64,000 nt of DNA from Kiritimatiellia bacterium (GTDB lineage Bacteria; Verrucomicrobiota; Kiritimatiellia; JAQICX01): assembly GCA_027858345.1 (NCBI GenBank), contig JAQICX010000242.1, positions 2,787 to 66,786 of the forward strand. The letters run 5' to 3'. Position 1 is the first letter of the stretch. Every line of letters starts with the position of its first letter. This document shows positions 20 to 58,870 of this stretch, piece after piece. The translations under genes were made by a program, and so were the position numbers. The notes under the pieces are model-generated. The model was not told the DNA's origin, did no database searches, and saw nothing but the letters and a program-made list of their open reading frames with translations.

Positions 20-230
20 CGGGTCTTTTCGACAAGCAGGACACAGACGGCAAGGTAGCACAACCTTCAAGGTTGTAAGCGGTTTTGACACTTGCAACGA
101 AGATCGTTGCGTTACCCTGTAGCTACGCAGGACACCGTCGTAGTCTTAGAACGGCGACAGTGTCCTGCATAGCTGTGAGCGAAGCATGGACGCAGTCGAA
201 CAAAATAAAACAGATGCCCCACAAAATATT
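20..230. repeat. GC-rich composite palindromic repeat element with GTAG/CTACAG and gtcctgcatagc modules, downstream of the rSAM operon
   Basis: Contains ccctgtagctacgcaggacac and cagtgtcctgcatagctgtgagcgaagcatgg. Homologous blocks recur at 28745-28830 and 58590-58640. Confidence 0.5.
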
Positions 231-3384: not shown

Positions 3385-3640
3385 TAGCCTTATCCCCACG
3401 TTTTTTCGTAGGTCACCGCCCGACGCTACAGGCGTTGCTTCCCTATTCAACCTTTTCCCGAGCCGGGGGGCGACTCGGCTACAGGACTTATTCTGCAAGC
3501 TAACCCTAGCCCGCAAAGCTCCTCCCGCTTTTAGGGGAGGTGGCGAGGAGTGACACGACCAAAGGGAAGTGAGGCTGGAGCTTGCGACAGCAATGAAACG
3601 CAGTGTAATGTCCCACCTAGACGGAGGGGTATTCCGTTCA
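3385..3640. repeat. GC-rich mosaic repeat (GTAG-REP family B unit cgcccgacgctacaggcg, ccgagccgggg...ctcggctacagg, ggaggtggcgag, gacggaggggtattc modules)
   Basis: Modules shared with 25560-25700, 26470-26590, 46660-46700 and 49265-49300. Confidence 0.5.
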
Positions 3641-6842: not shown

Positions 6843-6927
6843 ATCATTCCTATATTATTGTTAAATCTCAATTATAACAACATGCAGCATTTTTTAAAAG
6901 ACAAAAAAGTTCACCTTCTTTTTTAAC

Positions 6928-7058
6928 CGTAATTTTTCGGTTGGCTACAGCTATGACAACGAGGATCCCGCTCTGCGGGATCGCTCCCAGCATGCAACCA
7001 ACCGTTGTCTTGGAAAAACGGGAGAGATCCCGCAGGGCGGGATCCCCATTGTCATAAG
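6928..7058. repeat. MITE-like element fragment with TTTTTCGGTTG terminus and gatcccgctctgcgggatc palindrome
   Basis: Left end aatttttcggttgg. Internal palindromes gatcccgctctgcgggatc and gatcccgcagggcgggatc. Same module at 31865-31895. Confidence 0.5.
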
Positions 7059-7286
7059 AAATTATTTTTTAACTTTATCACCAAAAACAGCAAAAACTCA
7101 AAGCAAAATCCCTGATTTTATTGACTAAAATCCATGCTTATATTCTCAACCAGAAAAATAGGGTTAAAAAGTTGATTTGGTTCGCACCTGACCATTAATC
7201 ATGATTCGCTTTTAAACATTTTTTCATCTTCATCGCATATGTTACATCACGATTTGCTTCCTTGTTTTGTCTTTTCCAGAAAGCTA

Positions 7287-14800: not shown

Positions 14801-17800
14801 GTCCAGTTCGCCGTCCGCCTGCGTCACGTCTGACAGCGGTACAAGCGAATGCCCCGCGCCGTCGGCCGCCGGCAGCCACTTGTCATTGTAAGTGAACGAC
14901 ACCACGTTGCGACCGAGCGCGTCTTCGATCTCGATCTTCTCGCCGGCGTTGTCGAGACTGGTTGACGGAAAGACGAACGCGCCGGCGATCTTGCCGACAG
15001 CCACCGTCGGATACCTGTTCGTGAACGCAATGATGTTCTTGACCACCAGCACATACTCGTCGGGATTCAGGACGGTTACGGCGCTCTCCGTGAAATCGAA
15101 CGCCACGCCCTGGGTGAAATGCAGACCGGTTAGACCGATGGGCGCGGTGCCGGCGTTCTGCAACTCGATGAATTCGTCGTCGCCGTCCAGACAGCTTTCG
15201 CCGCCGACCGATACCGGCTGGCGCGGGTGAAACATCAGCTCCGTCACCCGCAGGTCCGGCTTGTCGGCCAGCGTGAACACCGCCTCGGTCAGGGCACTCC
15301 ACTCGCCACCCGCCGAGAGCGCACGGGCCTTGACGTGCACCGTGCGCGTCAACGGCACGGCCGCGGAATACAACGTCCCCGTCGCCGCTCCCGTGCCATA
15401 CTGACGCGGATCGGAGCCGTCCAGCGTGTAGTAAATCGGGTTCCCAGCGGTCACAACCAAATTAAAGCTGTTGTCGAACAGGCCACCAAATTGGCTGAAC
15501 TCTGGTGCGTCCACGGCAGGATAAAGTCCATTAGCTTTCAGCATCTGCATGAATATCGCCGGACGCAGAGGCAAGAACGTATTCAACACGTAGTTGCGCA
15601 TAACGCGCCACTGCTCGACCGTATGAGCAGCCTGACCGTCCTGGTCTCCCCAACGTGCACTCTCTGCAACAATGGCCTGCTCAACCTCTTCCGATAGTGC
15701 CTGATAACGTGCAATTGTGACCTCCGGTGTCAATTGCCCGCCATTAAAAAGATATTTATGCACACGGTCGGCGAACCGCAACTTGTATTCCGCATTCCCA
15801 ACCAACCGACCCTGAATCACGGCTACGCCATTGATATCGCCGATCTTGTCAGTATTGAGTGTGCTCCTGTCCAACCCCAATGCCATTTCGGCATCCCAGA
15901 CACCAAACTTGAATCCTGTACTCGCCGAATCGTTCCTGTCGCGGAATGCCCGCCAGTTATTCCCCGGCCAGTCATCAACCGCTAATGCATACTGCACGAT
16001 CATATAGTCAATGTAATTCCCAACATCCAGATAGATTGGATAAGCCAGATTACGCGTGCCGTCCTCATTGTTGCCCTGCACCTTCTGATATGCCGTGTTG
16101 CTACCCTGACCGTTGGCCAGCTCGTCCAGCATAACGTTCCAAGCCGTACCATTGCCGTCTTCTACTCCATCCTGACTGATCACATCCCACGTATCGTCCC
16201 GTCCGCCGCAATAAGAGGCTGCAAACTCACCAGAAATATGTTCCGTCATATTGTAGAGTCCCCAATACAAACCGTTCAAATAAAGATGGACAAAAGTGCC
16301 GTGCGGAGAAACCCCGCCCATGGTAAGATGCGTACGCCGGACGAACTCATCAACAATATACTGCGTCCTTTCATGCCCACTGCTGTTCCAACCGTCATTG
16401 GCCCCAGAACGCAATACAAGATCGTTGAAAGAGCTGACTGCGTTGCCTGAAAAAAGATTTTCCTTCAGATGACCCTCACCATAGATGCTTCTGAACTGAA
16501 ACGTGAACGACTTCTTTCTTGTGGCACCCATGTCCCTGAAATAGCCGCCCTGAACCCGCAAACCGCAATCAATCTGAAACTTGCTGGTGTTGTCAACCTT
16601 GATAAACTCAACCGAAGCCTCGCGTTCCCAATTGTCGCCAGTTCCGAAGGGATTGACGTAAATGCCGGTCGACGAGTCGAACAAGTTCGCCTGGGGCGTC
16701 ACCACAGATATGGTGGGCAGGGAAGTCAGTGCGTTTGTCAGAGCTGCACTGGAACTCGACACGATAATCTGATCCATGCCGTAGTCAGCCGCGGTGCCGT
16801 TCCAATCTGTCGGCCAACCGGACGGCGTTGCGGACTGGCTCAAAACGTCGTCCAGCACGATATAGCTATGGGTATCAATACCCGAGGGCACCCAATCACT
16901 CTTAAATGCAGCCGCACGGATGATGGCGGTGTTAACAAAATTGAACGGTGACGAATAGAGTGAACTGGTGACCGTCGGTTGCTCGGCATTGGTCGTGTAC
17001 CGGATCTGGACTTCGGACATGTCGCAACTCGCCGTCACCTCCGGCACGGCGGTGGTGTACACGCCTCGCTTCAGAGAAAACTTGACCCCGGCCACCTCGT
17101 TACTGGGACTGGAAAACGCATTACCATCCCCCGGCGTCGGCTCAGCAAAATAGCGATACTCCCCGGTGAGACCGATACCGTAGGACATATCGTCGTATTG
17201 CTGGGGGAATTCCGGCACATACTCCGAGAGCACGGTGACACCGTCCGCCTTCACCAGCGCCAGATACTCGCCGTCGCCGCTCAGTTTGAAGTTGGCGTGC
17301 AACTCGTTGTTGGTCACCGAGTACGACTTGTCGTCGGCCCAGACCAGCAGGTAGCCTTTGCCGGGAATGGTAGACGCCGAACCAGCGGGAAACTGCCACT
17401 TCGTAGGCGTAGCCACCTTGTCCGTCAAATACCAACCGGCCAACGACACGCTGGAAGAATTCGGATTGTACAATTCGACCCAATCCCCATACTTGTCCAG
17501 CGAGTTCTTGATCGTCGTGTCATTGAGTGCCATGAATTCGTTTATGACGATATTGGTCACCACATCGGGCAGCCCGGCAATCAGTTCGGGAAGAATCAGC
17601 ATGTCAGAACTTGAACCGAGATTTAACGAGTGAACTGCTAGCACATTAGTGCCGGTCGTCAACTGTGGAAGGAATGACGTAATGTCGTAATTCTGGAAAA
17701 TCATTGCCTGGCTGTCGTCGTGACTGGCCGATGCTCGCGTATCCCAACTGGCTCCAGCCGGTGCATTGACGCGTGCGACTTCAACGCCGTTCAAATAGGC

Positions 17801-18265
17801 AATAAAACCATCATCGTACTTGACTCGCAACGTCAAGGATAAGTAAGTCTTGCCTGTCGAAACTTCGAACGGGAAACGGGTGTAAATAGCAATTGTGTTG
17901 TTTAACACTGTGGTGCCAAATAGTGCTTTATAGGTCTGATTATTGTCGTACCCCAAACCGCTGTGGCCGAAGTTCCACGTTGAATCGTTGAAGGCAGGTG
18001 CAGTCCAGTTCGTGCCGTCCAAACCATTCGCCGGCACCTGATACTGGCATGCAGCACCGGATGCCACCAGGGGCTCGTCCAGCGCCAACACCGAGCCGGC
18101 AGCAAGCCCAATACCCATCGCAATAAGAAGTGTCAACAAAAGCCCCAGCCGTTTCATACACCTTTGCATCATTGCCGATAGCATCCAATAGCCCGAACAG
18201 AAACGGTCGACCGACTCGTAGTTCTGCGTGCACAGAATTCGTTCCATGTTTGTCATTTCATTCAT
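11897..18265 (-). CDS. giant secreted CotH-family (atypical protein kinase fold) protein with four lamin-tail domains and a C-terminal Ca-binding-like DLDGDG repeat
   Basis: Four LTD signatures: INEFMA...WVELYNPN...LAGWYLTD, VTELMFHP...EFIELQN, VLNEILAH...GIELYN, VISEIMYHP...EFVELYNP. CotH core: LRSGANDGWN...TQYIVDEF...HLYLNGLYWGLYN. Signal peptide MKRLGLLLTLLIAMGIGLAAGSVLA. GC content is far above the flanks. Confidence 0.65.
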   Translation of the reverse strand: MNEMTNMERILCTQNYESVDRFCSGYWMLSAMMQRCMKRLGLLLTLLIAMGIGLAAGSVLALDEPLVASGAACQYQVPANGLDGTNWTAPAFNDSTWNFGHSGLGYDNNQTYKALFGTTVLNNTIAIYTRFPFEVSTGKTYLSLTLRVKYDDGFIAYLNGVEVARVNAPAGASWDTRASASHDDSQAMIFQNYDITSFLPQLTTGTNVLAVHSLNLGSSSDMLILPELIAGLPDVVTNIVINEFMALNDTTIKNSLDKYGDWVELYNPNSSSVSLAGWYLTDKVATPTKWQFPAGSASTIPGKGYLLVWADDKSYSVTNNELHANFKLSGDGEYLALVKADGVTVLSEYVPEFPQQYDDMSYGIGLTGEYRYFAEPTPGDGNAFSSPSNEVAGVKFSLKRGVYTTAVPEVTASCDMSEVQIRYTTNAEQPTVTSSLYSSPFNFVNTAIIRAAAFKSDWVPSGIDTHSYIVLDDVLSQSATPSGWPTDWNGTAADYGMDQIIVSSSSAALTNALTSLPTISVVTPQANLFDSSTGIYVNPFGTGDNWEREASVEFIKVDNTSKFQIDCGLRVQGGYFRDMGATRKKSFTFQFRSIYGEGHLKENLFSGNAVSSFNDLVLRSGANDGWNSSGHERTQYIVDEFVRRTHLTMGGVSPHGTFVHLYLNGLYWGLYNMTEHISGEFAASYCGGRDDTWDVISQDGVEDGNGTAWNVMLDELANGQGSNTAYQKVQGNNEDGTRNLAYPIYLDVGNYIDYMIVQYALAVDDWPGNNWRAFRDRNDSASTGFKFGVWDAEMALGLDRSTLNTDKIGDINGVAVIQGRLVGNAEYKLRFADRVHKYLFNGGQLTPEVTIARYQALSEEVEQAIVAESARWGDQDGQAAHTVEQWRVMRNYVLNTFLPLRPAIFMQMLKANGLYPAVDAPEFSQFGGLFDNSFNLVVTAGNPIYYTLDGSDPRQYGTGAATGTLYSAAVPLTRTVHVKARALSAGGEWSALTEAVFTLADKPDLRVTELMFHPRQPVSVGGESCLDGDDEFIELQNAGTAPIGLTGLHFTQGVAFDFTESAVTVLNPDEYVLVVKNIIAFTNRYPTVAVGKIAGAFVFPSTSLDNAGEKIEIEDALGRNVVSFTYNDKWLPAADGAGHSLVPLSDVTQADGELDYPGNWKASVYIGGSPGEAEPVAPAASLVLNEILAHTDIDSPPYDSNDGIELYNVTAAPIPLGSGWYLSDDLEELTKWAIPATNTLAAHEWRYFDEIHDFHNPITNGFGLNKADEQVLLSYLPGMGTGATDRVVDAVSIKGEENGVPLIRYPDGAASWFYGVPTPGASNRLTAASVVISEIMYHPKPTTANPENNENDEFVELYNPTAQAIALTNIVNDVGGAWRLAGGIGYLFPSNTVLSAGERLVVVSFDPSNNIAKRTAFLDAYGLSNGQIRMLGPYSGQLNNKTDAVRLERPVFGDPPAPIEDISWHVIDQVTYYDAAPWPAEADGTGRALTHLTGRSSGDDPASWVAGIYPTPGYGPAKVAVIAPLANTGFLSPVSITVTAEVDPAFIIGTVSQVVFAIDGTNVASDSSAPYTATIALEAREGVRTLSARLIDDEGDALSPVVWIMVYTNIPAFTAQVNSTVNLTFTNRVGLHASAEVLSGMTNSVHFIWSSPGDSSVVLENPTQADAEAFFTHLGTYELMLTMIYGQLVTNRFVTVTVTDVNPPNSLPYKESFENYELGSLLNGIGGWQGYDPQCAVVETNRYTAAEPGDSPIAGSHKQGLSFNRGITQQFEQTDVLDNVCVDMLMAFNPGEDEVPVEITPEAQIALWVNSDQKLIVWHGQAGSTNRCSELTDVVVSSNDFNRLTLMADYARDLNGAFGFRIWVNRIPVTHPSVWYAAANTNRNYLSSVGFSGEGQVDDIVVDTYNSMLYRKITAESGSHGRVVPEGDVLVPVGASTNIVVLPDQFYGVGSVMLDGLATGPLMNVAFTNVWDEHALSADFLANLTASGIPEAWLNQLNPAWTNQFAEHEQADLDGDGAPNAQEYVAGTDAVNSQSVFRLGIGMSNGTAVVSFPTVPAGGFYGLGGLRYYALEQADDLTTGVWQKVTGLSKMAGEGQSVSYTNRIDEAPGNFFRGRVWLELEP

Positions 18266-18500
18266 AGTGTTTTTTCTTTTTTTTAATTTTACAATCCACC
18301 GTGATGAAAACTTTTTCTAAAAGTTTTTCTCGCTAACGTGTTAAGCTCACGGGCGGCGGTACGCCGTACCGTGAAGCGATTTGTTAAAATTTATTTTCTA
18401 TTTTCGAATACTGATTTACTAAAAACTAATAACTTTTACTCACCAATTAAAACAAATTTTTTAAATCTTTTAAATCTTTTTTTTAACAATTATTATACGA

Positions 18501-18660
18501 CCTTAATTTTTCGGTTGAACACACTTTTTGGCGGGGTCACGGACCCCGACCCTACAGTTGCGGATGCTGCAACCAAAGCTAAATCCTTGATTTGCAAGTA
18601 TTTTGTAGGGTCGGGGTGCTTCACCCCGCCAGCCAAGGCATTCAATCTAAAAATTGAGGT
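18501..18660. repeat. BIME-type MITE: two inverted GTAG-REPs (ggcggggtcacggaccccgaccctacag / tgtagggtcggggtgcttcaccccgcc) flanked by TIR ccttaatttttcggttgaa ... tcaatctaaaaattgagg
   Basis: Read directly from the sequence. An inverted, partly degraded copy lies at 22541-22745. Confidence 0.65.
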
Positions 18661-18699
18661 ATTTATTTGAACTGTACACTTTTTATAGGAGACAAAAAA

Positions 18700-21600
18700 T
18701 TATATTTTTCTGAGGATATCATTAACTTTCTTTGTGAATTTCACAAGAGAGAATGGTTTTTCCAAGAAATGAAACCCTTTTTTGTTTAGAGATGACTTCT
18801 TAATTCTCTCTTCTGAATAGCCACTGCATAATAATATTGGTAGGTTCGGTTTTTGTTTTGCAACGATTTCAGCTAAATCCGGTCCAGAACGACCTGGAAG
18901 AATAACATCGCTTATTAACAAATCAAAATCACCTTTGTTTTCCTTGAAAATTTCTTCTGCTAATTCGGCATCATGGGCAGTTTTAACTCTGTAACCAGCG
19001 TTCTCAAGAGCCGTGGTCATTAATGATAGTATTGATGGGTCATCTTCCACAACTAGAATATGTTCGCCGTTACCAATCTTGTTGACTTCTTTGCTGGTGC
19101 CTTCGACCGTCATACTTTGCACTTTCTTCTCACATGCTGGAATATAAATTTTAAATGTTGTCCCCTTATCAACTTCACTATAAGTGTTTATCCAGCCATT
19201 ATATCTTTGAATTGTAGCATATGTTGAAGCTAATCCAAGTCCAGTTCCTTTAGAACGCCCCTTTGTTGTGAAAAATGGTTCAAAGATATGAGTAATTATT
19301 TCATCTTTCATACCTGTGCCTGTGTCAGTGATTGACATGCATACATAGCTTCCTGCGTGTATTGTTGGGTTGGCTAAAGCATCCCCTGTTGTAAATTCAA
19401 CATTATGTGTCGCAATGTTGATCACTCCACCATTTGGCATGGCATCGCGAGCATTAATAGCCATGTTGATAATTATTCGATCAATTTGCTGCTTGTCTGC
19501 TTTAACAACATATAGTCCTGGGTCGAGTGTTGTGTTTATCTTAATATTCTCGCCAACAGCACTCTTAATAATTTTTTCTGTACCTTTGACAGTTGCGTTT
19601 ATATCAATGTCTGATGTATGCACTTTTTCATCACGGCTGAAAAGTAGAAGTTGTTTTGTCAAATCAAAAGCATGTCCGGCTGCCTTTTGAATTTCATCTA
19701 AACTGCTTTTTGCAACTTCGTCATGATCAATCTCAATCATTAGCAGTTCGCTGAACCCAATAATAACCTGCATGATGTTGTTGAAGTCATGTGCAATTCC
19801 TCCCGCAAGCTGTCCAACTGCTTCCATTTTTTCGGCATGTTGAATTTTTGTTTCATATGCAATCTCATCGGTGATATCACGTTTGATGGCAACAAAATTG
19901 GTTATATACATGTTGGAATCAAGTACTGGAGATATTGTTGCCCACTCTGTATATAGTTCGCCATTTTTACGCTTGTTTATTAAACGACCTTCCCAAGTCT
20001 TTTTGGAGGTGATTACATTCCACATGTTTTCATAGAATTCAGCATCATGTTTGTCACTCTTTAGTACTCTTGGATTTTCTCCAATAGCTTCTTGTTTACT
20101 ATAACCGGTTATTTTTTCAAATGCAGGGTTTACATATTCAATTGTACCTTCACTATCAGTGATAACAACGGTATCCGAAAATTGTTCAATAGCTGCAGAA
20201 AGTCTGCGAAGTTCTTTAGTTCTATTGTTTTCATCTGCAATAAAACGAGCTTGCTGTATGTTTTGAAGTGCTGATGAGGACAGTTGTTTTGTCAGGTCGC
20301 AAAGTGCTTTGTTTATTTTGTGAAGTTGATTTTCGCTTATTACAGGCACTTTTTTGAATTCCTTGAGGAAAGACTCTTCATCAATACCAATGTTTCTCGC
20401 TTTACATAGCATTTGCTCTTCTGTCTGTGCATCATTTCTAATCTGTCCAAATAGCCAGGAAGCAATATGTTTATCTCCTGCATAGATATTTGCACTTAGT
20501 TCCCACAATCCTGTTTTGGGACATATGTAGATGTAAGAATCGTCAGTAAATTCCTCGGGTTGTATTTGAGAAAAATTTATTTTATAGCTCTCAACCAAAC
20601 TTAGTGACTGATGTTCTAGTATCATGGTGCATAGATATGGATAATTACTTGGTTTAGTTATTGGTGTTCCATCTGGTGAAACAATTATTGATGCCAAGTT
20701 CATTGCAGCTGCAAAATTATCCTGTGTTTTCTGTATGTCGGCTATGTTGAACAACTCTTCAAATGTTATGTTATTGATATCTTCTTTTGGACTGGTTAGG
20801 GTTAATATACGATTTTCAATTGTCTGCTGCAGTTCTTTTTGCGTTGTTATGTCGCGAATTATAGAGCATATCAATTGAGAATCTTCAAAATCAAGAAAGT
20901 TTTTGGTAACTTCAGTAGGGAATGTTGTTCCGTCTTTTTTACAGTGAATTCTCTCTAATTTAACATACTTTTTCGTTTTGAGTTCATTCCATATACTATC
21001 CCAGTTTTCATAGTTATTTTCATTGTCTAAATCATAGATATGCATAGAAAGTAGTTCTTGTTTGCTATATCCATATAACTCAGAGACAATATCGTTCACA
21101 TAGACAATTTGTCCTTCAATGTTGCTCCAAATCACAACATCTGCCAGGTTATCAACAGCAAATTGTGTCTGTTTAAGCTGTTTCTCAAGTTGTTTCTGTC
21201 CTGTGATATCACTGAATGTAACCGCAAAGTGATTTGGTGCGGTGCGGAATGCTCTAACTGAATAGTATCTCTTAAGTTCACTTGAGTAGTTGTCGTAAAG
21301 AATTGTTCTGCCCGTGTTTACAACTTTTTCAAATGCTTCAATCCAGTAGTCTTCTGTTCCAGGTAATGCTTCTTTTACCGTTTTTCCAATTAGGCTATCT
21401 GCTTTTAAACCTGTTAAATCCTCAAAAGCTGGATTAACTTGAAGATATCGATAATCCACCGCTTTTCCATTCTCATCATAAATCATTTCGTGCAGAGCAA
21501 ATCCCACAGGAACATTTTCGAAAAGAGTTCGGTATCTTTCTTCACTGTCGGTCAGCAATTTATTTGCATTACGTTCAGCGGTCTGGTCTCCGAATGCCAT

Positions 21601-22128
21601 CACCACCCCGATTGTTTTGCCTTTTTCATCACAGATTGGTGCAGCACTGTCGGCGATAGGTGTTTCTGTTCCATCCTTTGCAATCAAAACCGTGTGATTA
21701 GCTAAGCCAATTATTTTGCCATTTTTCAGAACTTCCGTTACAGGAATCTTGGCAGGTTTTCTTGTGTGCTCATTAATTATCTTAAAAACTTCATCAATTG
21801 GTTTTCCGGCAGCTTCTTTTATGGTCCATCCTGTAAGCTGTTCGGCAATAGGATTCATTAATGTTATTTTGCCATCCACATCGGTTGCAATGACTGCATC
21901 GCCAATAGATTGAAGGATAATATGAAACTGTTCTTCTTTTTCATGAAGATTATGCTCATATCTATAGTTGTCATCTGTAGAATGTTTTGAACCTTGAGAC
22001 GACTGCTGGATATCTTTTAGCTTCTGAGTTGCAGCAGCCTCTGAATCCGTTAACGCTTTCAAGTATTTTTCAAGCTCGTCCTTATCTTCTGTAGATAATT
22101 TTTTTAAAATGTTTTGTATTTCTTCCAT
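18700..22128 (-). CDS. multi-PAS hybrid sensor histidine kinase with C-terminal receiver domain
   Basis: H-box HDFNNIMQVIIGFSELL, G-box GTGLGLASTY, and receiver ILVVEDDPSILSL...DLLISDVILPG. Several PAS/PAC repeats upstream. Confidence 0.85.
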   Translation of the reverse strand: MEEIQNILKKLSTEDKDELEKYLKALTDSEAAATQKLKDIQQSSQGSKHSTDDNYRYEHNLHEKEEQFHIILQSIGDAVIATDVDGKITLMNPIAEQLTGWTIKEAAGKPIDEVFKIINEHTRKPAKIPVTEVLKNGKIIGLANHTVLIAKDGTETPIADSAAPICDEKGKTIGVVMAFGDQTAERNANKLLTDSEERYRTLFENVPVGFALHEMIYDENGKAVDYRYLQVNPAFEDLTGLKADSLIGKTVKEALPGTEDYWIEAFEKVVNTGRTILYDNYSSELKRYYSVRAFRTAPNHFAVTFSDITGQKQLEKQLKQTQFAVDNLADVVIWSNIEGQIVYVNDIVSELYGYSKQELLSMHIYDLDNENNYENWDSIWNELKTKKYVKLERIHCKKDGTTFPTEVTKNFLDFEDSQLICSIIRDITTQKELQQTIENRILTLTSPKEDINNITFEELFNIADIQKTQDNFAAAMNLASIIVSPDGTPITKPSNYPYLCTMILEHQSLSLVESYKINFSQIQPEEFTDDSYIYICPKTGLWELSANIYAGDKHIASWLFGQIRNDAQTEEQMLCKARNIGIDEESFLKEFKKVPVISENQLHKINKALCDLTKQLSSSALQNIQQARFIADENNRTKELRRLSAAIEQFSDTVVITDSEGTIEYVNPAFEKITGYSKQEAIGENPRVLKSDKHDAEFYENMWNVITSKKTWEGRLINKRKNGELYTEWATISPVLDSNMYITNFVAIKRDITDEIAYETKIQHAEKMEAVGQLAGGIAHDFNNIMQVIIGFSELLMIEIDHDEVAKSSLDEIQKAAGHAFDLTKQLLLFSRDEKVHTSDIDINATVKGTEKIIKSAVGENIKINTTLDPGLYVVKADKQQIDRIIINMAINARDAMPNGGVINIATHNVEFTTGDALANPTIHAGSYVCMSITDTGTGMKDEIITHIFEPFFTTKGRSKGTGLGLASTYATIQRYNGWINTYSEVDKGTTFKIYIPACEKKVQSMTVEGTSKEVNKIGNGEHILVVEDDPSILSLMTTALENAGYRVKTAHDAELAEEIFKENKGDFDLLISDVILPGRSGPDLAEIVAKQKPNLPILLCSGYSEERIKKSSLNKKGFHFLEKPFSLVKFTKKVNDILRKI

Positions 22129-22275
22129 TTTAGATAACAGATCCTATTTATGTAAAATTCTAAAAAGATGTACTAATTCTACAATATTGAAGTCAATAAT
22201 AATAAGTAATAGCTTTTAAGTATATTCTAATAGTATTAAAATGTCAAATTATAATGATATATATTCATCTTTTTT

Positions 22276-22445
22276 CTTGATTTTTCGGTTGAGTACCCCT
22301 CAGTCATGCACGCATGACAGCTCCCCTAAAAGAGGGAGCAGTTGTAAAACTTGCAATTCAAACGGTTTGCACAACAACTCACCCACTCCTCCCCTTGAAG
22401 GGGAGGTGCCGAAGGCGGAGGGGTCGTATTGGGCATAATTTATTG
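22276..22445. repeat. MITE-like GC-rich element (gtcatgcacgcatgacagctcccc...gggagcag and cctcccc-ttgaa-ggggagg modules)
   Basis: Left TIR cttgatttttcggttgag. Module homologues at 31968-32015 and 47930-47985. Confidence 0.55.
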
Positions 22446-22540
22446 AATATTAAGCTTTTACACATATTCTTCATATTTATCACCCGTTGTGTGATCCACG
22501 CCTTGCGGGACAAGATAAATCTATAAAAAATATTTAAAAG

Positions 22541-22745
22541 GCGGGGTGATCACTCTTCGCCCAGCTATTAACGATATAATAAATCTTGTTAGTAGCTGGG
22601 CTACGCCTAACACAGAGCACCTTGAAGGAAAACCCTACAAAACACCTGCGAATCAATCTTTTAGCTTTGATTTCAGCATCCGCAACTGTAGGGTCGGGGT
22701 CCGTGACCCCGCCGAAAAGGGCATTCAACCGAAAAATTGAAAGGG
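22541..22745. repeat. inverted copy of the 18501-18660 BIME-type MITE (first REP degraded)
   Basis: About 90% identical to the reverse complement of 18501-18600. Ends tcaaccgaaaaattgaaagg. Confidence 0.6.
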
Positions 22746-22839
22746 AAACTCAAATGTGGCTATTTAAGTATTTACTTTAAGGGTGAAATATGAAACAATT
22801 TGTGCTACCTTTTGTAAATAAAATTTATTAGGAAAAACT

Positions 22840-23745
22840 ATGAATCAATATGTCAAGGGCTACATATCTCTACTTTGCGGAATATTTTTGTTTAGTACGA
22901 TTGAAGTGGCAAGCAAGAAAATAGGTGGAGGAATAGATCCAACACTACTTACATTTATAAGATTTTTTATTACAGGTGTTGTCCTTCTTATAGCATCTAT
23001 ACCTATTTTAAAAAAACGGGAACGACCATTAAACAAGAAAGATTATGGAATTTTTATTCTTAATGGTTTTGTTGGAATCGCAGTAGCTATTTCTCTTTTT
23101 CATTACGCAATTAACACATTTGATAATGCGTCATCGGCTGCTGTTGTTTTTTGCGCCAACCCCATTTTTGTTGTTTTGTTTGCACCCTTAATTAACAAAA
23201 CAAAATTTGCCATATCTTCGATTTTAGTTGTTTTGGTTGGTTTGCTAGGTATATCATTTTTTGTAATGGAAGGAGGAGCATTTCAGCAGTCTTCTTTAAT
23301 AGCAACACTCATAATGTTGGCATCAGCAGCTCTTTTTGGTGTGAGTGTTTGTATTACTAAAAAGTTTGTTAGCAACTATGGTGCAATGGTTTTTATGGGA
23401 TTTTCAGCTCTCTTTGCATCAATGTTTTTGTTGCCGATTGTTTTTATTGTTGGTCCAGTAGAGAGTTGGCAATCCTTTAGTGTCAGCTGGGTTCCAATAA
23501 TTTATGTTACTCTTATGGGTACAACCGCCGCATATTTTCTTTATTATTATGGTTTGAGTCATGCATCTTTAGTCAGTGGAGCAATGACGTTTTTCCTAAA
23601 GCCGATTATTGCCACAATCTTGGCTCTAATCTTTTTACCAAATGAAATTATAAATATATACACAATTATTGGTACATTGTTTATACTGACAGCAGTTGGT
23701 ATTGATATGTGTATGAAATTTAAACATGTAAAACAAGTGAAATGA
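22840..23745 (+). CDS. EamA/DMT-family transporter
   Basis: Ten predicted TM helices in two duplicated EamA halves. Confidence 0.7.
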   Translation: MNQYVKGYISLLCGIFLFSTIEVASKKIGGGIDPTLLTFIRFFITGVVLLIASIPILKKRERPLNKKDYGIFILNGFVGIAVAISLFHYAINTFDNASSAAVVFCANPIFVVLFAPLINKTKFAISSILVVLVGLLGISFFVMEGGAFQQSSLIATLIMLASAALFGVSVCITKKFVSNYGAMVFMGFSALFASMFLLPIVFIVGPVESWQSFSVSWVPIIYVTLMGTTAAYFLYYYGLSHASLVSGAMTFFLKPIIATILALIFLPNEIINIYTIIGTLFILTAVGIDMCMKFKHVKQVK

Positions 23746-23752
23746 GGCAATC

Positions 23753-24430: not shown

Positions 24431-24443
24431 AGCTTATACTATT

Positions 24444-25331: not shown

Positions 25332-25960
25332 AGATAAAGATAAAGATTAAGGTTGAGATGCTGGCTGTTTGCCAGCGGAATTAAGGAAATCATATCTTGA
25401 CTTTCTTCGAGGTCTGCTGACCGCGGCTACAGCTGTTCTTCCGCAAATCAAGCTTATCTTTTTGCACCATTCTGTAGGGTCGGGGTCCTTGACCCCGCCA
25501 AATCGTCGGTCATCGCCCGCCGCTATCCGCCTTCGTTCCTACGGCGCGACAGGCAGGTGTTGAGCCTGAAAACCAGCCTTAGTCCGCAAAAGCTCCTCCC
25601 TCTTTTAGGGGAGGTGGCGATCCCGCTACCACTTTGCATTTTTTAAGCAAAGTGGCGGCGGGAGAGACGGAGGGGTGTTCATTCAAAATGGAAGTTGGAC
25701 GTTCTATGTTCTCAACTATAATAAATACCGCCGGCCTGTCACGCCGTAGTCCGCCAAAGCTCCTCCCCGGCTAGCTTTGCTAGTCCCGCTCTGCGGGAGG
25801 AGGTGTCCGAGGAACGAGGACGGAGGGGGTCTTCATTTAATATTGGATGTTGAACGTTATATTCTTGTCTTTTTGCATCAAACTGTAGCTGACCTCCGCA
25901 GAGGTCGGAAAGCTGGCAACGCCAGCCCTCAACCTCAACCTTAATCTTAACTTTTCTGCG
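25323..25960. repeat. composite repeat region with inverted termini (aagataaagattaaggttgagatgctggc ... gccagccctcaacctcaaccttaatctt), containing a GTAG-REP (25482-25509), the gctaccactttg...caaagtgg hairpin and three gacggaggggt modules
   Basis: Read directly from the sequence. Module homologues at 3530-3660, 26470-26590 and 33824-33871. Confidence 0.5.
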
Positions 25961-26411
25961 GAACAACGAGCACAGGACAATGAGCTCTGCGTATTATATG
26001 TTTGATTGCATCGCCAAGAAAAGAACCTTGAAACTTTGATCGTGTTGCTTTTCCAATAATCAACATGTCCATATTGTTTTCTTCTGCAAATTCAATAATG
26101 GACATATAATCCCTGCCAATCTTAACGTTTACATTAAGTGTAAGGTCTGCTGGTAACTTTGATGTATAGCTCTTTTTGATTTTTTCGTCAACATCATGTT
26201 TAGCTTTCAGATCAACATTGTCATCAAGTTCATAGATGTAAGTTTTCCAGTATTGAGCATCCGGCTCTGGGATTGTATGAAGAAGATGTATGGTTCTTAA
26301 ATTAAATGCTTTGGCAATTGATATCGCCACATCAAATGCATTGTTTGCGTCCTCAGCAAAATCCGTGCAGAACAAAATCTTTTGAATATCTGTATTAAAC
26401 TCTGTCTTCAT
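25947..26411 (-). CDS. universal stress protein (UspA family)
   Basis: 154 aa. ATP-binding-type G-x2-G-x9-G-S C-terminal motif (GKATRSKFQGSFLGDAIKHIIRRAHCPVLVV). Confidence 0.7.
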   Translation of the reverse strand: MKTEFNTDIQKILFCTDFAEDANNAFDVAISIAKAFNLRTIHLLHTIPEPDAQYWKTYIYELDDNVDLKAKHDVDEKIKKSYTSKLPADLTLNVNVKIGRDYMSIIEFAEENNMDMLIIGKATRSKFQGSFLGDAIKHIIRRAHCPVLVVPQKS

Positions 26412-26464
26412 TTTTTTTCCTTATTGTTTTTCTACGAAAAGTGTACAGTTTACATTTTTTCTCA

Positions 26465-28602: not shown

Positions 28603-28830
28603 GCTTTCTTGATTTTTCGGTTGAGTCATTGCATGACGGCATATCCATCGGTCAACGACCGACGCTACAGGTGTTAAGTTTCGCAATCAACCGTTAAACT
28701 GCACGTTTCATACTGTAGCGGCGGTCGCTGACCGCCGAAAAATATTTTTCACTTTATCACCCACCGTGTCCTGCATAGCTTGCTGTGCCCTGCGTAGCTG
28801 CAAGCGAAGAATGGTAGAGCGATGCATGGA
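28603..28830. repeat. MITE-like element with two inverted GTAG-REP family B units (cggtcaacgaccgacgctacagg / ctgtagcggcggtcgctgaccgccg) and a gtcctgcatagc module
   Basis: Left TIR cttgatttttcggttgag. The REPs are inverted relative to each other (BIME-like). Confidence 0.6.
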
Positions 28831-28941
28831 ATGTGTTATAAAACGATACTTGTTTTGCTAATTCTATTAGCTCAAACGCATATTATCCACTCCAAACGAA
28901 AACCAAGGTCCGTTTACGACTATTATTTATCAATTGTTTCA

Positions 28942-31679: not shown

Positions 31680-31761
31680 TCCTTATTAATATATTAATTA
31701 AGGCATTATACATAACCAATAAATAAAGAGCAAGTCTCAAATGGATGATTTGCTGTCGCCT

Positions 31762-32085
31762 TAATTTTTCGGTTGAGACACTTTATGAGAACGTTTTTCA
31801 TGCCGTCACGCAGGTGACCGTTCTCGCTCCCGTTTTTCCAAGACTACGTTTGTTTGTATGCTGGGAGCGATCCCGCAGAGCGGGATCCTCGTTGTCATAT
31901 TAACTTGTTTTGTTTTCAGATATGAAAAGCCATTTGGCGGGGGCACGGTTCCTGACCCTACAGTCGCACCCCTCAGTCACGCAAGCGTGACAGCTCCCCT
32001 TAGCAAGGGGAGCAGTTCTGGTTTGCTTGACGCTTTCGCAGCTCATAACACTAAGGTGAGGAGGGCTCTTTTATAATAAATGCCT
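31762..32085. repeat. MITE-like composite element (TIR-like left end, gagaacg-loop-cgttctc hairpin, gatcccgcagagcgggatc palindrome, degenerate GTAG-REP, gtcacgcaagcgtgacagctcccc...ggggagcag module)
   Basis: Shares cactttatgagaacg with elements at 48910, 51722 and 54405. Confidence 0.55.
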
Positions 32086-45584: not shown

Positions 45585-45775
45585 AATTCTGAGACACAAA
45601 AATTAGGACGGTCTCCTTGATCCCGCCAACTGTAGCGTCGGGCGTTGACCGACGAACTAACCAAATTGTACTTTCTCGTTATTCCCCTTGGAACGCCGAG
45701 GTTGAGGAAAAACTCGGCACTAATCTGGCGACGTAGTCGCCACATCCGTCCCATAGGTCTCATTTGTCCCATTCT
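45585..45775. repeat. GC-rich repeat with GTAG-REP family B unit (caactgtagcgtcgggcgttgaccgacg) and gacgcagtcgtcacatccgtccca module
   Basis: The second module recurs at 59585-59650. Confidence 0.5.
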
Positions 45776-48893: not shown

Positions 48894-49265
48894 CCTTGAT
48901 TTTTCGGTTGAGTCACTTTATGAGAACGAGGACGACTGTAGGCCATTCACTACGTTCATTGCTTCACCCTATTGTTTATCTGTAATGGTTAAAGCCTCTC
49001 TCGCAGGCTCGAGTCTCGCTCCCAAACTTGCAGATTAATATTGTCTTGCAGGAATGGGAACCCACCCCTCCGTTCTCGTTCCTCGAACACCTCCTCCCGC
49101 AGAGCGGGACTAGCAAAACGCTAGCCGGGGAGGAGCTAATACGTCCTCATCGTCATAATAATTTGTTTTTCCCATTTATCACCAAAAACCGAGGAAATTT
49201 AAGATTCATTCCTTGATCTTATTGGCTCAAACGAACATTTTTATCTCCAACCGAAAAACTAAGGG
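48894..49265. mobile_element. MITE-like element (372 bp) with 16-bp TIRs ccttgatttttcggtt / aaccgaaaaactaagg
   Basis: Both termini read directly. The internal 150-bp block is about 95% identical to 54447-54590. Confidence 0.65.
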
Positions 49266-49500
49266 CTTACCGCCTGTAGCCGAGTCCCGTGGGCTCGGAG
49301 GAATTTGCAAACAACGCTGATATTGCTGCAGAACGCCTGTAGCGGCGGGCGTTGACCGCCTGTAGTAGACCTCCACAGAGGTCTGGAAAATTGCAACCCA
49401 AAGAAAGCCCCAGAGGGCGACATCTTAGTAGCCTCAGGTTTTAACCTGAGGAAAGATAAACAAATGAACAAAGAGTCCCATAGGAACGGCACCTCCTAGA
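49266..49500. repeat. cluster of GTAG-REP units (cctgtagccgagtcccgtgggctcgg; cgcctgtagcggcgggcgttgaccgcctgtagtagacctccacagaggtct)
   Basis: Three consecutive GTAG-plus-palindrome units read in the sequence. Confidence 0.55.
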
Positions 49501-50413: not shown

Positions 50414-50424
50414 TCTTCGTTTAC

Positions 50425-50640
50425 CTTGATTTTTCGGTTGTAGATTTTTCCCCGTTAAGTTTAGAAAACATAGGCCTCTCTCCCGCCTTGCGGGATTCTT
50501 GCTCCTTTCTATTTTTCTTATTAGAGAAAGAAGCGTTAGACAGTGTCTACGGCTCGGCAAGATGCGGACAGGCGCACGAAAAAAGAAAAAAATTAGCAGC
50601 ACAAAGACACGAAAACCCAAAGCATGGAGTTTTTGAACCT
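50425..50640. mobile_element. MITE-like element (left TIR ccttgatttttcggttg) lying inside the read-through ORF
   Basis: The TIR motif and ctctcccgccttgcgggat palindrome. The right end is less clear. Confidence 0.45.
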
Positions 50641-51472: not shown

Positions 51473-51705
51473 AAGTTCCGATTCCTTTCTTATTCGTGCC
51501 CGAACAATTATTATACGAAGGCTCGTAAATAATTTCAGTATTTAAATAATATCAAAGGCAAAAATTGTCTTTGAGTGGTTGGCTTGTTGTTAAACCCAGC
51601 ATAAAAAGAGCTGTTTATAACAATTATTCTTCTAAAGTTAGCAGTGTTATATGGTTTTCTAAGAAAAATGCAACTTTTATTTTGGTCGTCATAAATAAAA
51701 AGCGT

Positions 51706-51965
51706 CAATTTTTCGGTTGAGACACTTTATGAGAACGAAAATCCCGCCCTGCGGGACTACCAAACTTGCAAATTAATATTGTCTTGTAGGAATTGGATCA
51801 TCCTTTGCTCTTCCCGCTTCGTTCTGCGAACTACGCAGGACACGGTCGAGTCTACGGCGGACAAGCCGACGATGGTCACCTGCGTGACGGAATAAAAAGA
51901 AAATTCACTCCCTTATTTTGTTGACTCAAATGCACGAATTTACCTCTAACCGAAAAACTAAGGAC
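51706..51965. mobile_element. MITE-like element (260 bp) with TIRs caatttttcggttga / aaccgaaaaactaagg
   Basis: Termini read directly. Internal blocks shared with 48894-49265 and 54389-54730. Confidence 0.65.
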
Positions 51966-54388: not shown

Positions 54389-54730
54389 CCTTTTCGGTTA
54401 TTTCACTTTATGAGAACGTTTTTCATGCCGTCACGCAGGTGACCGTTCTCGCTCCCAAACTTGCACATCATATTGTCTTGCAGGAATGGGAGCCCCACCC
54501 CTCCGTTCTCGTTCCTCGAACACCTCCTCCCGCAGAGCGGGACTAGCAAAACGCTAGCCGGGGAGGAGCTAATACGTCCTCATCGTCATTAAAAATTATT
54601 TTTCATTTTGTCACCCAATTGTGTCGTGCGAAGCTTGCAAAGCAAAGAATGAAATGGGCAAAAACAAGCTGTCAATCACTAGTTTTGTTGGTCGAAATGC
54701 ATGTTTTTTATCCTAGCCGAAAAATTAAGG
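54389..54730. mobile_element. MITE-like element (342 bp) with TIRs ccttttcggtta... / agccgaaaaattaagg
   Basis: Shares the gagaacg-hairpin, the 150-bp block with 49001-49160, and gtgtcgtgcgaagcttgcaa with 58755-58780. Confidence 0.6.
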
Positions 54731-58486: not shown

Positions 58487-58870
58487 GATACCTTGATTTT
58501 TCGGTTGAATTATTTTTTTGTTGAAATTTTGGAAAGCCATTCTTTCAAATAGTTTATAGTTGATAGTAAATAGTAAATAGTTCTCTACGAGGTTAGGAAG
58601 TCGCTTTGCTATGCAGGACACAGTAGCGGGTTAGAAAGAGCACTGCCGTGGGCAGGAGGATTCTACTTTGCAGAAAACTTCAAAAGAAAATGTGACGCAG
58701 GACTCATGACGCACGACGCATGGTTTCATAAAAAAACTTATAGTCACATAAGTACTGTGTCGTGCGAAGCTTGCAAGAAGGATGAACAAACAATATGGAA
58801 TATTGTTCGCTGTCTCTTCATCTCAACATGAGCGGAAGCGGATTCCAACATTTACCATTTACCGTTTACT
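58487..58870. repeat. MITE-like composite repeat (left TIR ccttgatttttcggttgaa; aaatagtaaatag direct repeats; gtcctgcatagc-type and gtgtcgtgcgaagcttgcaag modules)
   Basis: Read directly from the sequence. Modules shared with 100-200 and 54625-54650. Confidence 0.5.

What the first reader, a model, noticed from the sequence alone, without database searches (positions are those of the whole stretch)
18501..18660. Genome is saturated with GTAG-type REP/BIME palindromic units (two sequence families)
A recurring unit is a GTAG tetranucleotide followed by an imperfect GC-rich palindrome, exactly the architecture of enterobacterial and pseudomonad REPs that are mobilised by RAYT (TnpA-REP) transposases. 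No RAYT-like HUH gene is visible in this window.
- Family A is CTGTAGGGTCGGGGTCcNtGACCCCGCC: 18530-18557 (rev), 18603-18630, 22686-22713, 25482-25509, and a degenerate copy at 31936-31963.
- Family B is GTAGCG(G/T)CGG-N-CCG(A/C)CG: 3418-3440, 28650-28680, 28722-28750, 45629-45660, and 49327-49375 (tandem).
- Units often occur as inverted pairs separated by a linker (BIME-like), e.g. 18530-18630 and 28650-28750.
Basis: partly seen in the sequence, partly recalled or inferred. Interest (0 to 1): 0.6.

Follow-up and report, generated by a model that had tools for sequence, protein, structure and literature searches.

The report
Hairpin-cored mini-transposons parked upstream of promoters
The GC-rich GTAG hairpins are real and REP-like, but at the flagged site they form the core of a small non-coding transposon with inverted ends and target duplications. 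It almost always sits about 27 bases upstream of a gene's promoter, in one orientation, a placement I did not find described for bacterial mobile elements in the papers I searched.

Summary
Observation confirmed. GTAG-tagged GC-rich hairpins are massively enriched in the intergenic DNA of this roughly 39% GC genome from the PVC superphylum: 16 were found against 0.23 expected. There are at least five stem families, not two.

Interpretation partly supported.
- The units match the GTAG-REP architecture.
- A syntenic relative carries a RayT-like Y1 transposase flanked by GTAG-hairpin arrays.
- No RAYT was found in the window or in 258 kb of a repeat-sharing MAG.
- The flagged inverted pair (18530/18603) is not a free BIME or REPIN. 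It is the palindromic core of a 159-bp element (18501-18659) bounded by the 18-nt inverted repeat CCTTRATTTTTCGGTTGA.

The same backbone carries different hairpin pairs at about 10 window sites. At least 47 copies occur in a Victivallales-labelled MAG.
- 7 of 22 complete copies keep perfect 7-9 bp target duplications.
- All 13 junctions between adjacent elements lie 5-8 nt tip-to-tip.
- It therefore moves as a MITE through a transposase that makes target duplications. That transposase was not found.

New finding. The L end lies 24-30 nt (mode 27-28) upstream of a sigma70-type -35 hexamer in 44 of 55 copies, against 14% in shuffled flanks, and always in one orientation. One such promoter is conserved in a relative that lacks the element. 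Targeting of insertion to promoters is inferred, not shown.

The parts
18501..18659 (+). The flagged element is a 159-bp symmetric MITE. It runs L-TIR 18501-18518, REP-A(-) 18530-18557, conserved linker 18558-18602, REP-A(+) 18603-18630, then an inverted L-type TIR at 18642-18659.
   Evidence: Arms 18500-18556 and 18604-18660 are 77% complementary. It folds as one long hairpin at -44.5 kcal/mol, z = -7.1. It is 72-90% identical to 47 copies in MAG CAYTUX01.
18446..18474 (-). Candidate promoter of the 2122-aa gene (start codon at 18265). The -35 TTTAAA is at 18474-18469 and the -10 TTTAAT at 18451-18446. The -35 begins 27 nt outside the L tip.
   Evidence: It is a weak match, so this is an inference.
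22632..22742 (-). Truncated family-A element in reverse orientation, with its L-TIR at 22725-22742 and REP-A at 22686-22713. The L tip faces the start of gene 22840(+).
   Evidence: A 107-nt inverted match to 18505-18611 at 89%.
22275..22500 (+). Element with L-TIR 22275-22292, untagged hairpins and the tail motif TTTATCACC at 22476. The host promoter TTGACA-N17-TATACT lies at 22247-22219, 28 nt from the tip.
   Evidence: It is the top promoter hit of the independent scan.
25410..25580 (-). Degenerate family-A element with nested units: another GTAG hairpin at 25410-25431(-), REP-A at 25472-25499(+) and a B-like unit at 25508-25533(-).
28607..28908 (+). MITE with the same backbone and a family-B inverted pair. 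It runs L-TIR 28607-28624, REP-B(-) 28647-28670, REP-B(+) 28713-28736, tail TTTATCACC at 28753, and a degenerate R-TIR at 28890-28908. The DctQ promoter (-35 at 28582-28577, -10 at 28558-28553) lies 25 nt from the tip.
   Evidence: The promoter is conserved in the MITE-free relative L164.
6927..7163 (+). MITE with the same TIRs and tail, but an untagged hairpin pair (GATCCCGC-nnn-GCGGGATC) as its core.
   Evidence: (I7). The promoter TTTAAA-N16-TATAAT lies 29 nt from the tip.
31759..32060 (+). Composite element with L-TIR 31759-31776. It contains the degenerate REP-A at 31936-31963(-). The promoter TTGCTC-N17-TATAAT (31733-31705) of the GDSL gene lies 26 nt from the tip.
48894..49264 (+). Complete 371-bp MITE flanked by the 7-bp target duplication GCTTACC.
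49274..49385 (+). Three head-to-tail GTAG units of different stem families (C, B and D), each preceded by CGCC.
51703..51963 (+). MITE of 261 bp with the same TIRs.
54389..54730 (+). MITE with a degenerate L-TIR at 54389-54406 and an R-TIR at 54713-54730. Its core is 96% identical to 49061-49171.
   Evidence: (D3).
58491..58508 (+). L-TIR of an AT-rich subfamily. The promoter TTGCTT-N17-TATACT (58465-58437) lies 26 nt from the tip.
50424..50441 (+). A further L-TIR. The promoter TTGAAA-N17-TATAAA (50397-50369) lies 27 nt from the tip.
3408..3483 (-). Solo GTAG units outside any recognisable TIR element: B-type at 3408-3431 and C-type at 3457-3483.
45630..45653 (+). Solo family-B unit downstream of rpoC.
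55..76 (+). A GTAG unit, GTAGCACAACCTTCAAGGTTGT. It belongs to the class that flanks the RayT-like gene in the syntenic relative L164.

Best explanation
**What it is.** The flagged sequence is a non-autonomous transposon (MITE) whose core is an inverted pair of REP-like, GTAG-tagged GC hairpins. One backbone carries interchangeable hairpin pairs as its core. The backbone consists of an L-TIR (CCTTRATTTTTCGGTTGA or CCCTGTTTTTCTGGTTGA), an AT-rich tail (TTTATCACCC...ATTTTATTGG...) and an R-TIR. The cores are GTAG families A and B, or untagged hairpins.

**Shown**
- The whole unit, including the linker, is what is repeated. The 26-nt hairpin alone is not.
- Copies are bounded by 18-nt inverted repeats and by 7-9 bp target duplications.
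- Adjacent copies abut tip to tip at one duplication length.
- The L end lies about 27 nt upstream of the -35 hexamer of host promoters, which puts the tip at about -63. It is always L-end-proximal.
- About 11 of roughly 27 promoter-bearing intergenic regions in the window carry such an element.

**Inferred**
- Movement is by a trans-acting DDE-type transposase making staggered cuts 7-9 bp apart. It has not been located.
- Target choice is coupled to promoter architecture, either to the -35 hexamer or RNA polymerase holoenzyme, or to the upstream edge of the UP region.
- The GTAG hairpins themselves most likely descend from RAYT-type REPs that were captured in the element core or inserted into it. 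A RayT-like gene with GTAG arrays exists in a relative.
- Once in place, the elements sit between an upstream stop codon and the next promoter. There, like other REPs, they may stabilise upstream mRNA 3' ends or insulate the promoter.
For: **The unit of repetition is the whole element**
- BLAST of the window against MAG loci aligns 18500-18630 and 22632-22738, not just the REP.
- There are 47 MAG copies, and 44 include the L-TIR. The alignment shows the conserved linker and tail.

**Terminal repeats and target duplications**
- TIRs: 16 hits in the window against 0-1 in shuffles.
- 7 of 22 complete elements have perfect 7-9 bp direct repeats abutting the TIRs: GCTTACC, ATGAATAT, TTTTAAGT, CCAAAAA, ATTATGAAA, CCTCTCA(C) twice. 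The cross-pair null gives 3 of 462 at 7 bp or more.
- Tip-to-tip spacing is 5-8 nt in 13 of 13 junctions, and 7 nt in 8 of them.

**Promoter phasing**
- The best -35/-10 match starts 24-30 nt from the L tip in 44 of 55 flanks. Shuffled flanks give 14% and R-end flanks give 2 of 12.
- The flanks are otherwise unrelated.
- The promoters are followed by a ribosome-binding site plus ATG, or by tRNA genes.
- Seven more cases come from independent metagenome contigs.

**The promoter predates the element**
- The DctQ -35 and -10 are conserved in L164, which has no TIR element. Homology ends just upstream of the -35.
- Target duplications abut the TIR, so the promoter lies outside the mobile unit.

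**REP-like nature**
- The GTAG tag plus GC stem is enriched about 70-fold in intergenic DNA.
- There is a compensatory closing-pair allele.
- The 5' CT-GTAG matches the GTAG-binding and CT-cleavage requirements of E. coli TnpA-REP (PMC3479197).
- A RayT-like gene is flanked by GTAG arrays in L164.
Against: - No transposase gene with these TIRs was found in the window, in 258 kb of MAG loci, or among the roughly 12 true relatives from the metagenome scan. The enzyme family is therefore unknown.
- Only about a third of complete copies keep an intact target duplication, and the flagged copy itself has none.
- Promoters are predicted from consensus only. No transcription start sites are available. 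The generic promoter scan is not enriched over shuffles in this AT-rich DNA, so the evidence is positional.
- Fixed spacing could also arise if the TIR is a functional upstream site and only correctly phased insertions survive.
- Only one orthologous site without the element was examined, in a relative whose genes are 72-85% identical, so it is not a true pre-insertion allele.
- The MAG sample was selected by presence of family A, so genome-wide frequencies are not known.
Confidence: 0.7

Rival explanations
1. This is a classical REP/BIME or REPIN system. The hairpin pairs would be mobilised as single-stranded hairpins by a single-copy RAYT (Y1/HUH) encoded elsewhere in the genome. The outer inverted repeats would be only extended REPIN arms.
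For: - The GTAG tag, GC stem and inverted (tail-to-tail) dimers fold into one long hairpin.
- CT precedes GTAG, as at E. coli RAYT cleavage sites (PMC3479197).
- A RayT-like gene flanked by GTAG arrays occurs in syntenic relative L164, and one such unit is in the window.
- RayT-like proteins are common in PVC genomes.
- GTAG dimers embedded in long palindromes are known in Anabaena variabilis (PMC3733652).
Against: - The 7-9 bp target duplications and the tip-to-tip junctions one duplication length apart are not produced by HUH/Y1 transposition.
- The same TIR backbone carries untagged hairpin cores and AT-rich cores, so the TIRs define the mobile unit, not the GTAG hairpins.
- No Y1 ORF was found in 464 kb with a family-specific profile, apart from L164.
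- The L164 RAYT is flanked by a different REP class. L164 has no TIR elements.
Confidence: 0.15
2. The 'TIR' is primarily a cis-regulatory site. It would be an upstream activator or nucleoid-protein site centred near -71, with the hairpins acting as a terminator or insulator. The fixed spacing would reflect selection for function, not insertion targeting.
For: - The position from -63 to -80 is where class I activator sites lie (general knowledge).
- The elements occupy about 40% of promoter-bearing intergenic regions in the window.
- The elements lie between an upstream stop codon and the next promoter.
Against: - The motif is not palindromic.
- It also occurs at the distal R end and in tip-to-tip arrays, where no promoter follows.
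- Copies that still have intact target duplications (recent insertions) are already at the fixed distance in 4 of 6 cases.
- The orthologous DctQ promoter exists without the motif in L164.
- The hairpins are not followed by T-runs in the sense direction, and terminator-like sites are not enriched.
Confidence: 0.12
3. The promoter is part of the mobile element. On this reading the element is a mobile promoter cassette and its true left end lies beyond the -10.
For: The spacing between the TIR and the -35/-10 is constant.
Against: - Target duplications abut the TIR, inside the promoter.
- Flanks share nothing but the two hexamers.
- The DctQ promoter is orthologous in a genome without the element.
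Confidence: 0.03

Closest known systems
GTAG-tagged REPs and their RAYT transposases (Di Nocera et al. 2013, PMC3733652; Messing et al. 2012, PMC3479197)
   Same: - There is an unpaired 5' GTAG (usually CTGTAG), a 6-9 bp GC stem and a 3-nt loop.
- The units are extragenic.
- Several stem families occur in one genome.
- There are inverted dimers and head-to-tail clusters.
- GTAG REPs are already reported in PVC bacteria (Opitutus terrae, Rhodopirellula baltica).
- A RayT-like gene with flanking GTAG arrays exists in a relative.
   Different: - Families A and B here are amplified inside a unit bounded by TIRs and flanked by target duplications.
- No RAYT was found next to them.
- The GC-rich hairpins sit in an AT-rich (39% GC) genome.
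REPINs (Bertels & Rainey 2011, PMC3116915)
   Same: Two inverted REPs plus a spacer replicate as one unit and fold into a long hairpin.
   Different: - REPINs have no terminal repeats beyond the REPs and no target duplications, and they depend on a RAYT.
- This element has an asymmetric AT-rich tail, 18-nt TIRs and 7-9 bp duplications.
E. coli BIMEs
   Same: They are mosaics of inverted REPs separated by conserved linkers.
   Different: - BIMEs are defined by specific enterobacterial Y/Z REPs and by L/S linker motifs (IHF and gyrase sites). None of these can be matched here.
- BIMEs lack TIRs and target duplications.
Anabaena variabilis GTAG-15 dimers embedded in long palindromes (PMC3733652, section 'Association ... 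to other repeats')
   Same: GTAG dimers are regularly enclosed by a longer conserved inverted repeat that is never found empty.
   Different: No target duplications or promoter phasing were reported there, and the sequences are unrelated.
Bacterial MITEs such as Correia/NEMIS, ERIC, RUP and Chunjie (review PMC10969869)
   Same: They are about 100-400 bp, non-coding, intergenic and high in copy number, with TIRs and target duplications. They fold into long hairpins and exist in modular variants.
   Different: - The review describes intergenic or 3'-UTR preference only. It does not describe a fixed distance and orientation relative to the -35 hexamer.
- The cores here are REP-like GTAG hairpins.
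- No parent IS is known.
Promoter-proximal targeting by eukaryotic retrotransposons (Ty3, Dictyostelium TRE5-A; my own knowledge, not checked here)
   Same: Insertion occurs at a fixed short distance upstream of a transcription unit, with an orientation bias. This is a 'safe haven' strategy.
   Different: Those are RNA-mediated elements targeted through Pol III factors. Here the resemblance is functional only, and targeting is inferred.

Membership tests
GTAG-tagged REP superfamily | A 20-40 bp GC-rich imperfect palindrome with an unpaired GTAG at one end | tested here: met
   16 units in the window carry [CT]TGTAG followed by a 6-9 bp stem and a 3-8 nt loop. In family A, T2 G3 T4 A5 are invariant and G6 is at least 90% conserved across 33 variants.
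GTAG-tagged REP superfamily | High copy number and an extragenic location | tested here: met
   16 units lie in 13.2 kb of intergenic DNA and 1 in 50.8 kb of coding DNA, against 0.23 in shuffles. There are 76 family-A units in the window plus 258 kb of MAG loci.
GTAG-tagged REP superfamily | The stem is maintained by complementary changes | tested here: met
   The closing pair is C-G in 19 variants and G-C in 10, and 92.8% of cells are paired. In copies, GTC..GAC occurs 31 times and GTG..CAC 25 times, with no GTC..CAC or GTG..GAC hybrid among the 12 commonest centre 9-mers, which cover 71 of the 76 units. This is essentially one inherited event, so the covariation evidence is weak.
REP/RAYT system (REPtron) | A RAYT (PF01797, HUH plus Tyr) gene in the same genome, flanked by the same REP class | tested here: inconclusive
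   None was found in the window, in 258 kb of the MAG, or in relatives using a 120-sequence profile. A RayT-like gene flanked by a different GTAG class is present in syntenic relative L164. The complete genomes could not be searched.
REPIN | Two inverted REPs plus a spacer replicate as one unit | tested here: met
   The pair and its linker are conserved across 47 MAG copies.
REPIN | No target-site duplication and no TIRs other than the REPs themselves (Y1 mechanism) | tested here: not met
   There are 18-nt TIRs outside the REPs, and 7-9 bp duplications in 7 of 22 copies.
BIME (enterobacterial) | Y/Z REP types with defined L, S, l, r or s linker motifs, and IHF or gyrase binding | not testable with these tools
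   The sequences are unrelated to E. coli REPs, and binding cannot be tested. The resemblance is architectural only.
MITE | Short (<~500 bp) and non-coding | tested here: met
   Elements are 159-508 bp. Their only long ORFs are spurious read-throughs.
MITE | Terminal inverted repeats | tested here: met
   CCTTRATTTTTCGGTTGA or CCCTGTTTTTCTGGTTGA occurs at both ends. There are 16 hits in the window against 0-1 in shuffles.
MITE | Target-site duplications | tested here: met
   7 of 22 copies are perfect at 7-9 bp, against 3 of 462 in the null. Tip-to-tip junctions are 5-8 nt in 13 of 13 cases.
MITE | A parent IS with the same TIRs encoding the transposase | tested here: not met
   None was found in the window, the MAG loci or the metagenome relatives. 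Only a fraction of each genome was sampled.

The most novel reading that the evidence does not exclude
A bacterial MITE family whose transposition machinery selects its target relative to promoter architecture. It would insert 19-27 bp upstream of the -35 hexamer in a fixed orientation, for example by reading the -35 element, RNA polymerase holoenzyme or the upstream edge of the UP region. It would therefore colonise a large share of the genome's promoters without destroying them. This would be a prokaryotic counterpart of the Pol III-promoter targeting of Ty3 and TRE5-A.
Probability: 0.4. Interest if true: 0.85.

Novelty: new variant of a known kind. Interest (0 to 1): 0.62.

Why it matters
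**If the spacing reflects target selection.** This would be a rare bacterial case of transposon integration guided by promoter architecture. It would offer a natural system for studying how a transposase reads a transcription complex. It could also be a route to tools that insert DNA next to promoters.

**If the spacing reflects selection instead.** The elements would be a mobile upstream promoter module used at about 40% of promoters in this window.

**In either case**
- What look like REPs or BIMEs can be the cargo of a TIR transposon. Copy counts of GTAG hairpins therefore cannot be read as RAYT activity.
- These elements fragment MAG assemblies, because many contigs end in them.

**As a REP finding alone it is ordinary.** GTAG REPs and RayT-like genes are already known in the PVC superphylum.

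Tried and rejected
- **Metagenome scan with the TIR.** It returned 119 stretches. Most are single chance hits in unrelated genomes with 28-64% GC. About 12 are true relatives, and none contains an autonomous IS or a Y1 gene.
- **Multi-copy ORF search in MAG loci.** It found no repeated transposase.
- **Search with E. coli RayT.** It returned only enterobacterial proteins, which are useless as a distant profile. The query sequence was verified as identical to PDB 4ER8.
- **Context of a Victivallales RayT-like protein (P0141).** The gene sits inside a cobalamin operon with no flanking repeats, so it is uninformative.
- **Other contigs carrying the identical EF-Tu.** They break about 385 nt upstream of tuf, so no empty site could be seen there.
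- **Rfam.** There is no family at gathering threshold apart from two tRNAs. There is nothing relevant at E≤1 in 18200-32400.
- **Intrinsic-terminator reading of the hairpins.** Terminator-like sites are not enriched (9 found against 11 expected). The REP hairpins are not followed by T-runs in the sense direction.
- **The L-TIR itself as the -35.** This was considered for 18501, where TATAAT lies 3 nt from the tip. It was rejected because the other copies place the -35 27 nt away.
- **The three CCTCTCA repeats in L010.** They are best read as two successive insertions into the same 7-bp target.

Full report
**Context**

The window is bacterial chromosome with about 39% GC. It carries tRNA-Thr, tuf, rpmG, tRNA-Trp, secE, nusG, rplKAJL and rpoBC at 32.4-45.5 kb. 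Its proteins are deposited as a 'Kiritimatiellae bacterium' MAG on a contig of 104,834 nt. The only genome among 185,579 species representatives that shares the family-A repeat is an 'uncultured Victivallales' MAG, CAYTUX01. It accounts for 40 of the 41 stretches hit. Both labels place the organism in the PVC superphylum.

- Family A occurs at 18530-18557(-), 18603-18630(+), 22686-22713(+) and 25472-25499(+). A degenerate copy lies at 31936-31963(-). None is expected by chance.
- Family B occurs five times, again with none expected.
- A systematic scan finds 16 GTAG-headed GC hairpins in 13.2 kb of intergenic DNA, against 0.23 in shuffles, and one in 50.8 kb of coding DNA.
- These units fall into at least five stem families. 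Several abundant untagged hairpin families exist as well, so 'two families' is an undercount.
- Family A has two linked alleles, GTC-CGT-GAC and GTG-CTT-CAC. They differ by a compensatory change of the closing pair, and 92.8% of cells are paired. This is one inherited event, so it is only weak covariation evidence.

**What the flagged locus is**

The repeated unit is not the 26-nt hairpin.
- BLAST of the window against the MAG loci aligns 18500-18630 and 22632-22738 as a whole at 72-90% identity.
- Of 47 MAG copies, 44 include the same left terminal sequence. The 45-nt linker between the two hairpins is conserved.
- The full MAG element is about 240 bp. It runs L-TIR (CCCTGTTTTTCTGGTTGA), REP(-), linker, REP(+), an AT-rich tail (TTTATCACCCAAAA...ATTTTATTGG...) and R-TIR (TCAACCAGAAATTTAAGG).
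- The window copy at 18501-18659 is a symmetric short form with two L-type ends. It folds into one long hairpin at -44.5 kcal/mol, z = -7.1.
- The same backbone recurs in the window with other cores:
  - a family-B pair at 28607-28908;
  - an untagged GATCCCGC pair at 6927-7163;
  - other cores at 48894-49264, 51703-51963, 54389-54730, 31759- and 22275-;
  - AT-rich forms at 58491 and 50424.

**It moves as a MITE**

- Of 22 complete elements, 7 are flanked by perfect 7-9 bp direct repeats that abut the TIRs. One is GCTTACC around 48894-49264. In the cross-pair null, only 3 of 462 reach 7 bp.
- Where two elements are adjacent, their tips are 5-8 nt apart in 13 of 13 junctions, and 7 nt apart in 8 of them. 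That is one duplication length.
- L010 shows two elements sharing three copies of CCTCTCA.
- These are signatures of a staggered-cut (DDE-type) transposase, not of HUH/Y1 chemistry.
- No transposase gene carrying these TIRs was found.

**The RAYT question**

- No Y1 ORF exists in the window or in 258 kb of MAG sequence around at least 76 family-A units.
  - Verified seeds found none.
  - An HUH/Tyr motif scan found none.
  - A 120-member profile of PVC RayT-like proteins found none.
- A syntenic relative does carry one. This is L164, whose genes are 72-85% identical in nucleotide sequence and share the Usp-DctMQ-RecQ-GDSL-tuf order.
  - It encodes a 209-aa Y1_Tnp between RecQ and GDSL.
  - Pfam gives PF01797 at E = 1.7e-9.
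  - The best NCBIfam model is REP_Tyr_transpos at 63 bits, below its cut-off of 80.
  - The best PDB match is TnpA-REP, 4ER8.
  - The HVH motif and the YIANNP tyrosine are present.
- This gene is flanked on both sides by arrays of a GTAG hairpin, GTAGCACAACCTTCnAGGTTGT. One such unit is in the window at 55-76. The window has only 140 bp at the orthologous site.
- Homologues are numerous (2713 at E ≤ 1e-10). The few hits that carry organism names are mostly PVC MAGs, and JGI labels many of them RayT.
- REP/RAYT biology is therefore present in the lineage and is the most likely origin of the GTAG hairpins. The CT-GTAG head matches what E. coli TnpA-REP binds and cleaves (PMC3479197). No RAYT has been linked to families A or B. 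L164 has no TIR elements at all.

**The unexpected part: promoter phasing**

- Every L-TIR in the window points at the start of the neighbouring gene.
- Across 55 non-redundant L-end flanks from the window and the MAG, the best sigma70-type match (TTGACA-N16-18-TATAAT) has its -35 hexamer starting 24-30 nt from the tip in 44 cases. The mode is 27-28. Shuffled flanks give 14% and R-end flanks give 2 of 12.
- The flanks share nothing else. There is no consensus in the duplicated target.
- The predicted promoters are followed by a ribosome-binding site plus ATG, or by tRNA genes.
- Seven further cases at 27-29 nt come from independent metagenome contigs.
- The strongest hit of the independent promoter scan, 22247-22219, is one of them.
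- Target duplications lie between the TIR and the promoter, so the promoter is outside the mobile unit.
- The DctQ promoter (-35 TTGCGG, -10 TATGAT) is conserved in L164, which lacks the element. Homology stops just upstream of the -35.
- In the window, 11 of roughly 27 promoter-bearing intergenic regions carry an element.

**Mechanism**

*Shown:* TIRs, target duplications, one-duplication-length junctions, fixed orientation and fixed spacing to promoters.

*Inferred:* a trans-acting transposase inserts the element with its L end at about -63. This is either because target capture reads the -35/RNA polymerase complex or the upstream edge of the UP region, or because only such insertions survive. 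Copies that still have intact duplications are already at the fixed distance in 4 of 6 cases, which favours targeting. I rate targeting at about 0.4.

The hairpins are not followed by T-runs in the sense direction, and terminator-like sites are not enriched. A simple terminator role is therefore not supported. REP-like mRNA 3'-end stabilisation or insulation remains possible.

**Comparison with known systems**

- GTAG REPs are already described in PVC bacteria, and GTAG dimers enclosed in long palindromes are known in Anabaena variabilis (PMC3733652). The hairpins are therefore new members of a known kind.
- The composite element passes the MITE tests, apart from a known parent IS. It fails the REPIN test of having no duplications and no TIRs.
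- The 2024 review of prokaryotic MITEs lists intergenic and 3'-UTR preferences only, and nothing like a fixed distance to the -35 (PMC10969869). My literature searches found nothing on such elements in Victivallales or Lentisphaerae.
- I therefore classify the whole as a new variant of a known kind.

**Limits**

- Promoters are predicted, not mapped.
- The MAG sample was chosen by presence of family A.
- Complete genomes could not be searched.
- The mobilising enzyme is unknown.

Noticed in passing
window 11897-18265 (-): This is a 2122-aa ORF with 52-59% GC in a roughly 39% GC genome. It carries Lamin-tail, CotH kinase, CHB_HEX_C, Fn3_assoc and Big_7 domains. It looks horizontally acquired. 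The melibiase gene at 52021-53742 also has raised GC (about 53%).
   Followed up: partly
window 18338-18380 and 49865-49910: A conserved motif of about 45 nt lies upstream of two unrelated minus-strand genes, the CotH protein and a cupin. It reads ACGTTAAsCTCACGGGCGrCGrTAyGCCG.CCGTGAAGCGATTTGTyAAAATT and contains an internal inverted repeat (TCACGG/CCGTGA). It is 85% identical between the two sites (D9). The first copy has no Rfam match. It could be a shared leader or an operator.
   Followed up: no
window 22563-22601; L004, L011 and L019: A second mini-palindromic element, CCCAGCTAyTA...(about 40-60 nt, AT-rich)...TAGTAGCTGGG, is inserted inside the family-A hairpin in several MAG copies. It also occurs next to a hairpin remnant in the window, so these small elements nest within one another.
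   Followed up: no
window 25332-25376, 25912-25946, 48010-48024, 55782-55990, 59520-59560: GCTGGC-nnn-GCCAGC hairpins at gene 3' ends are flanked by runs of a TAAGGTTGAGG / TTAAGATAAAGG-like AT-rich repeat (D4, 9, 21). This looks like a separate terminator-associated repeat family.
   Followed up: no
window 46270-46420 (+): This appears to be a fragment of an IS3-family (rve) transposase. It reads ...LDRSFCIDAVKETLQRYGTPDIFNTYQGSQYTNE*FTDLLKELNVKISI, with an in-frame stop. I read it by eye, and it is not related to the TIR elements.
   Followed up: no
L002-L042 (MAG CAYTUX01): About a third of the family-A matches lie within 200 nt of a contig end. These elements are evidently where the MAG assembly breaks. 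Contigs carrying the identical EF-Tu in other samples also stop about 385 nt upstream of tuf, at the repeat-rich region.
   Followed up: partly
L164 5930-7120: The RayT-like gene in the relative is flanked by arrays in which all four exact GTAG units have the same orientation, rather than the inverted arrangement of textbook REPtrons. Its right flank contains a stretch homologous to the interior of the window MITE at 48936-49010.
   Followed up: partly
window 50153-51190 (-): This 345-aa ORF is probably not one gene. Only residues 43-157 match Lcl_C. The rest reads through a TIR element (L-TIR at 50424) and its promoter.
   Followed up: no
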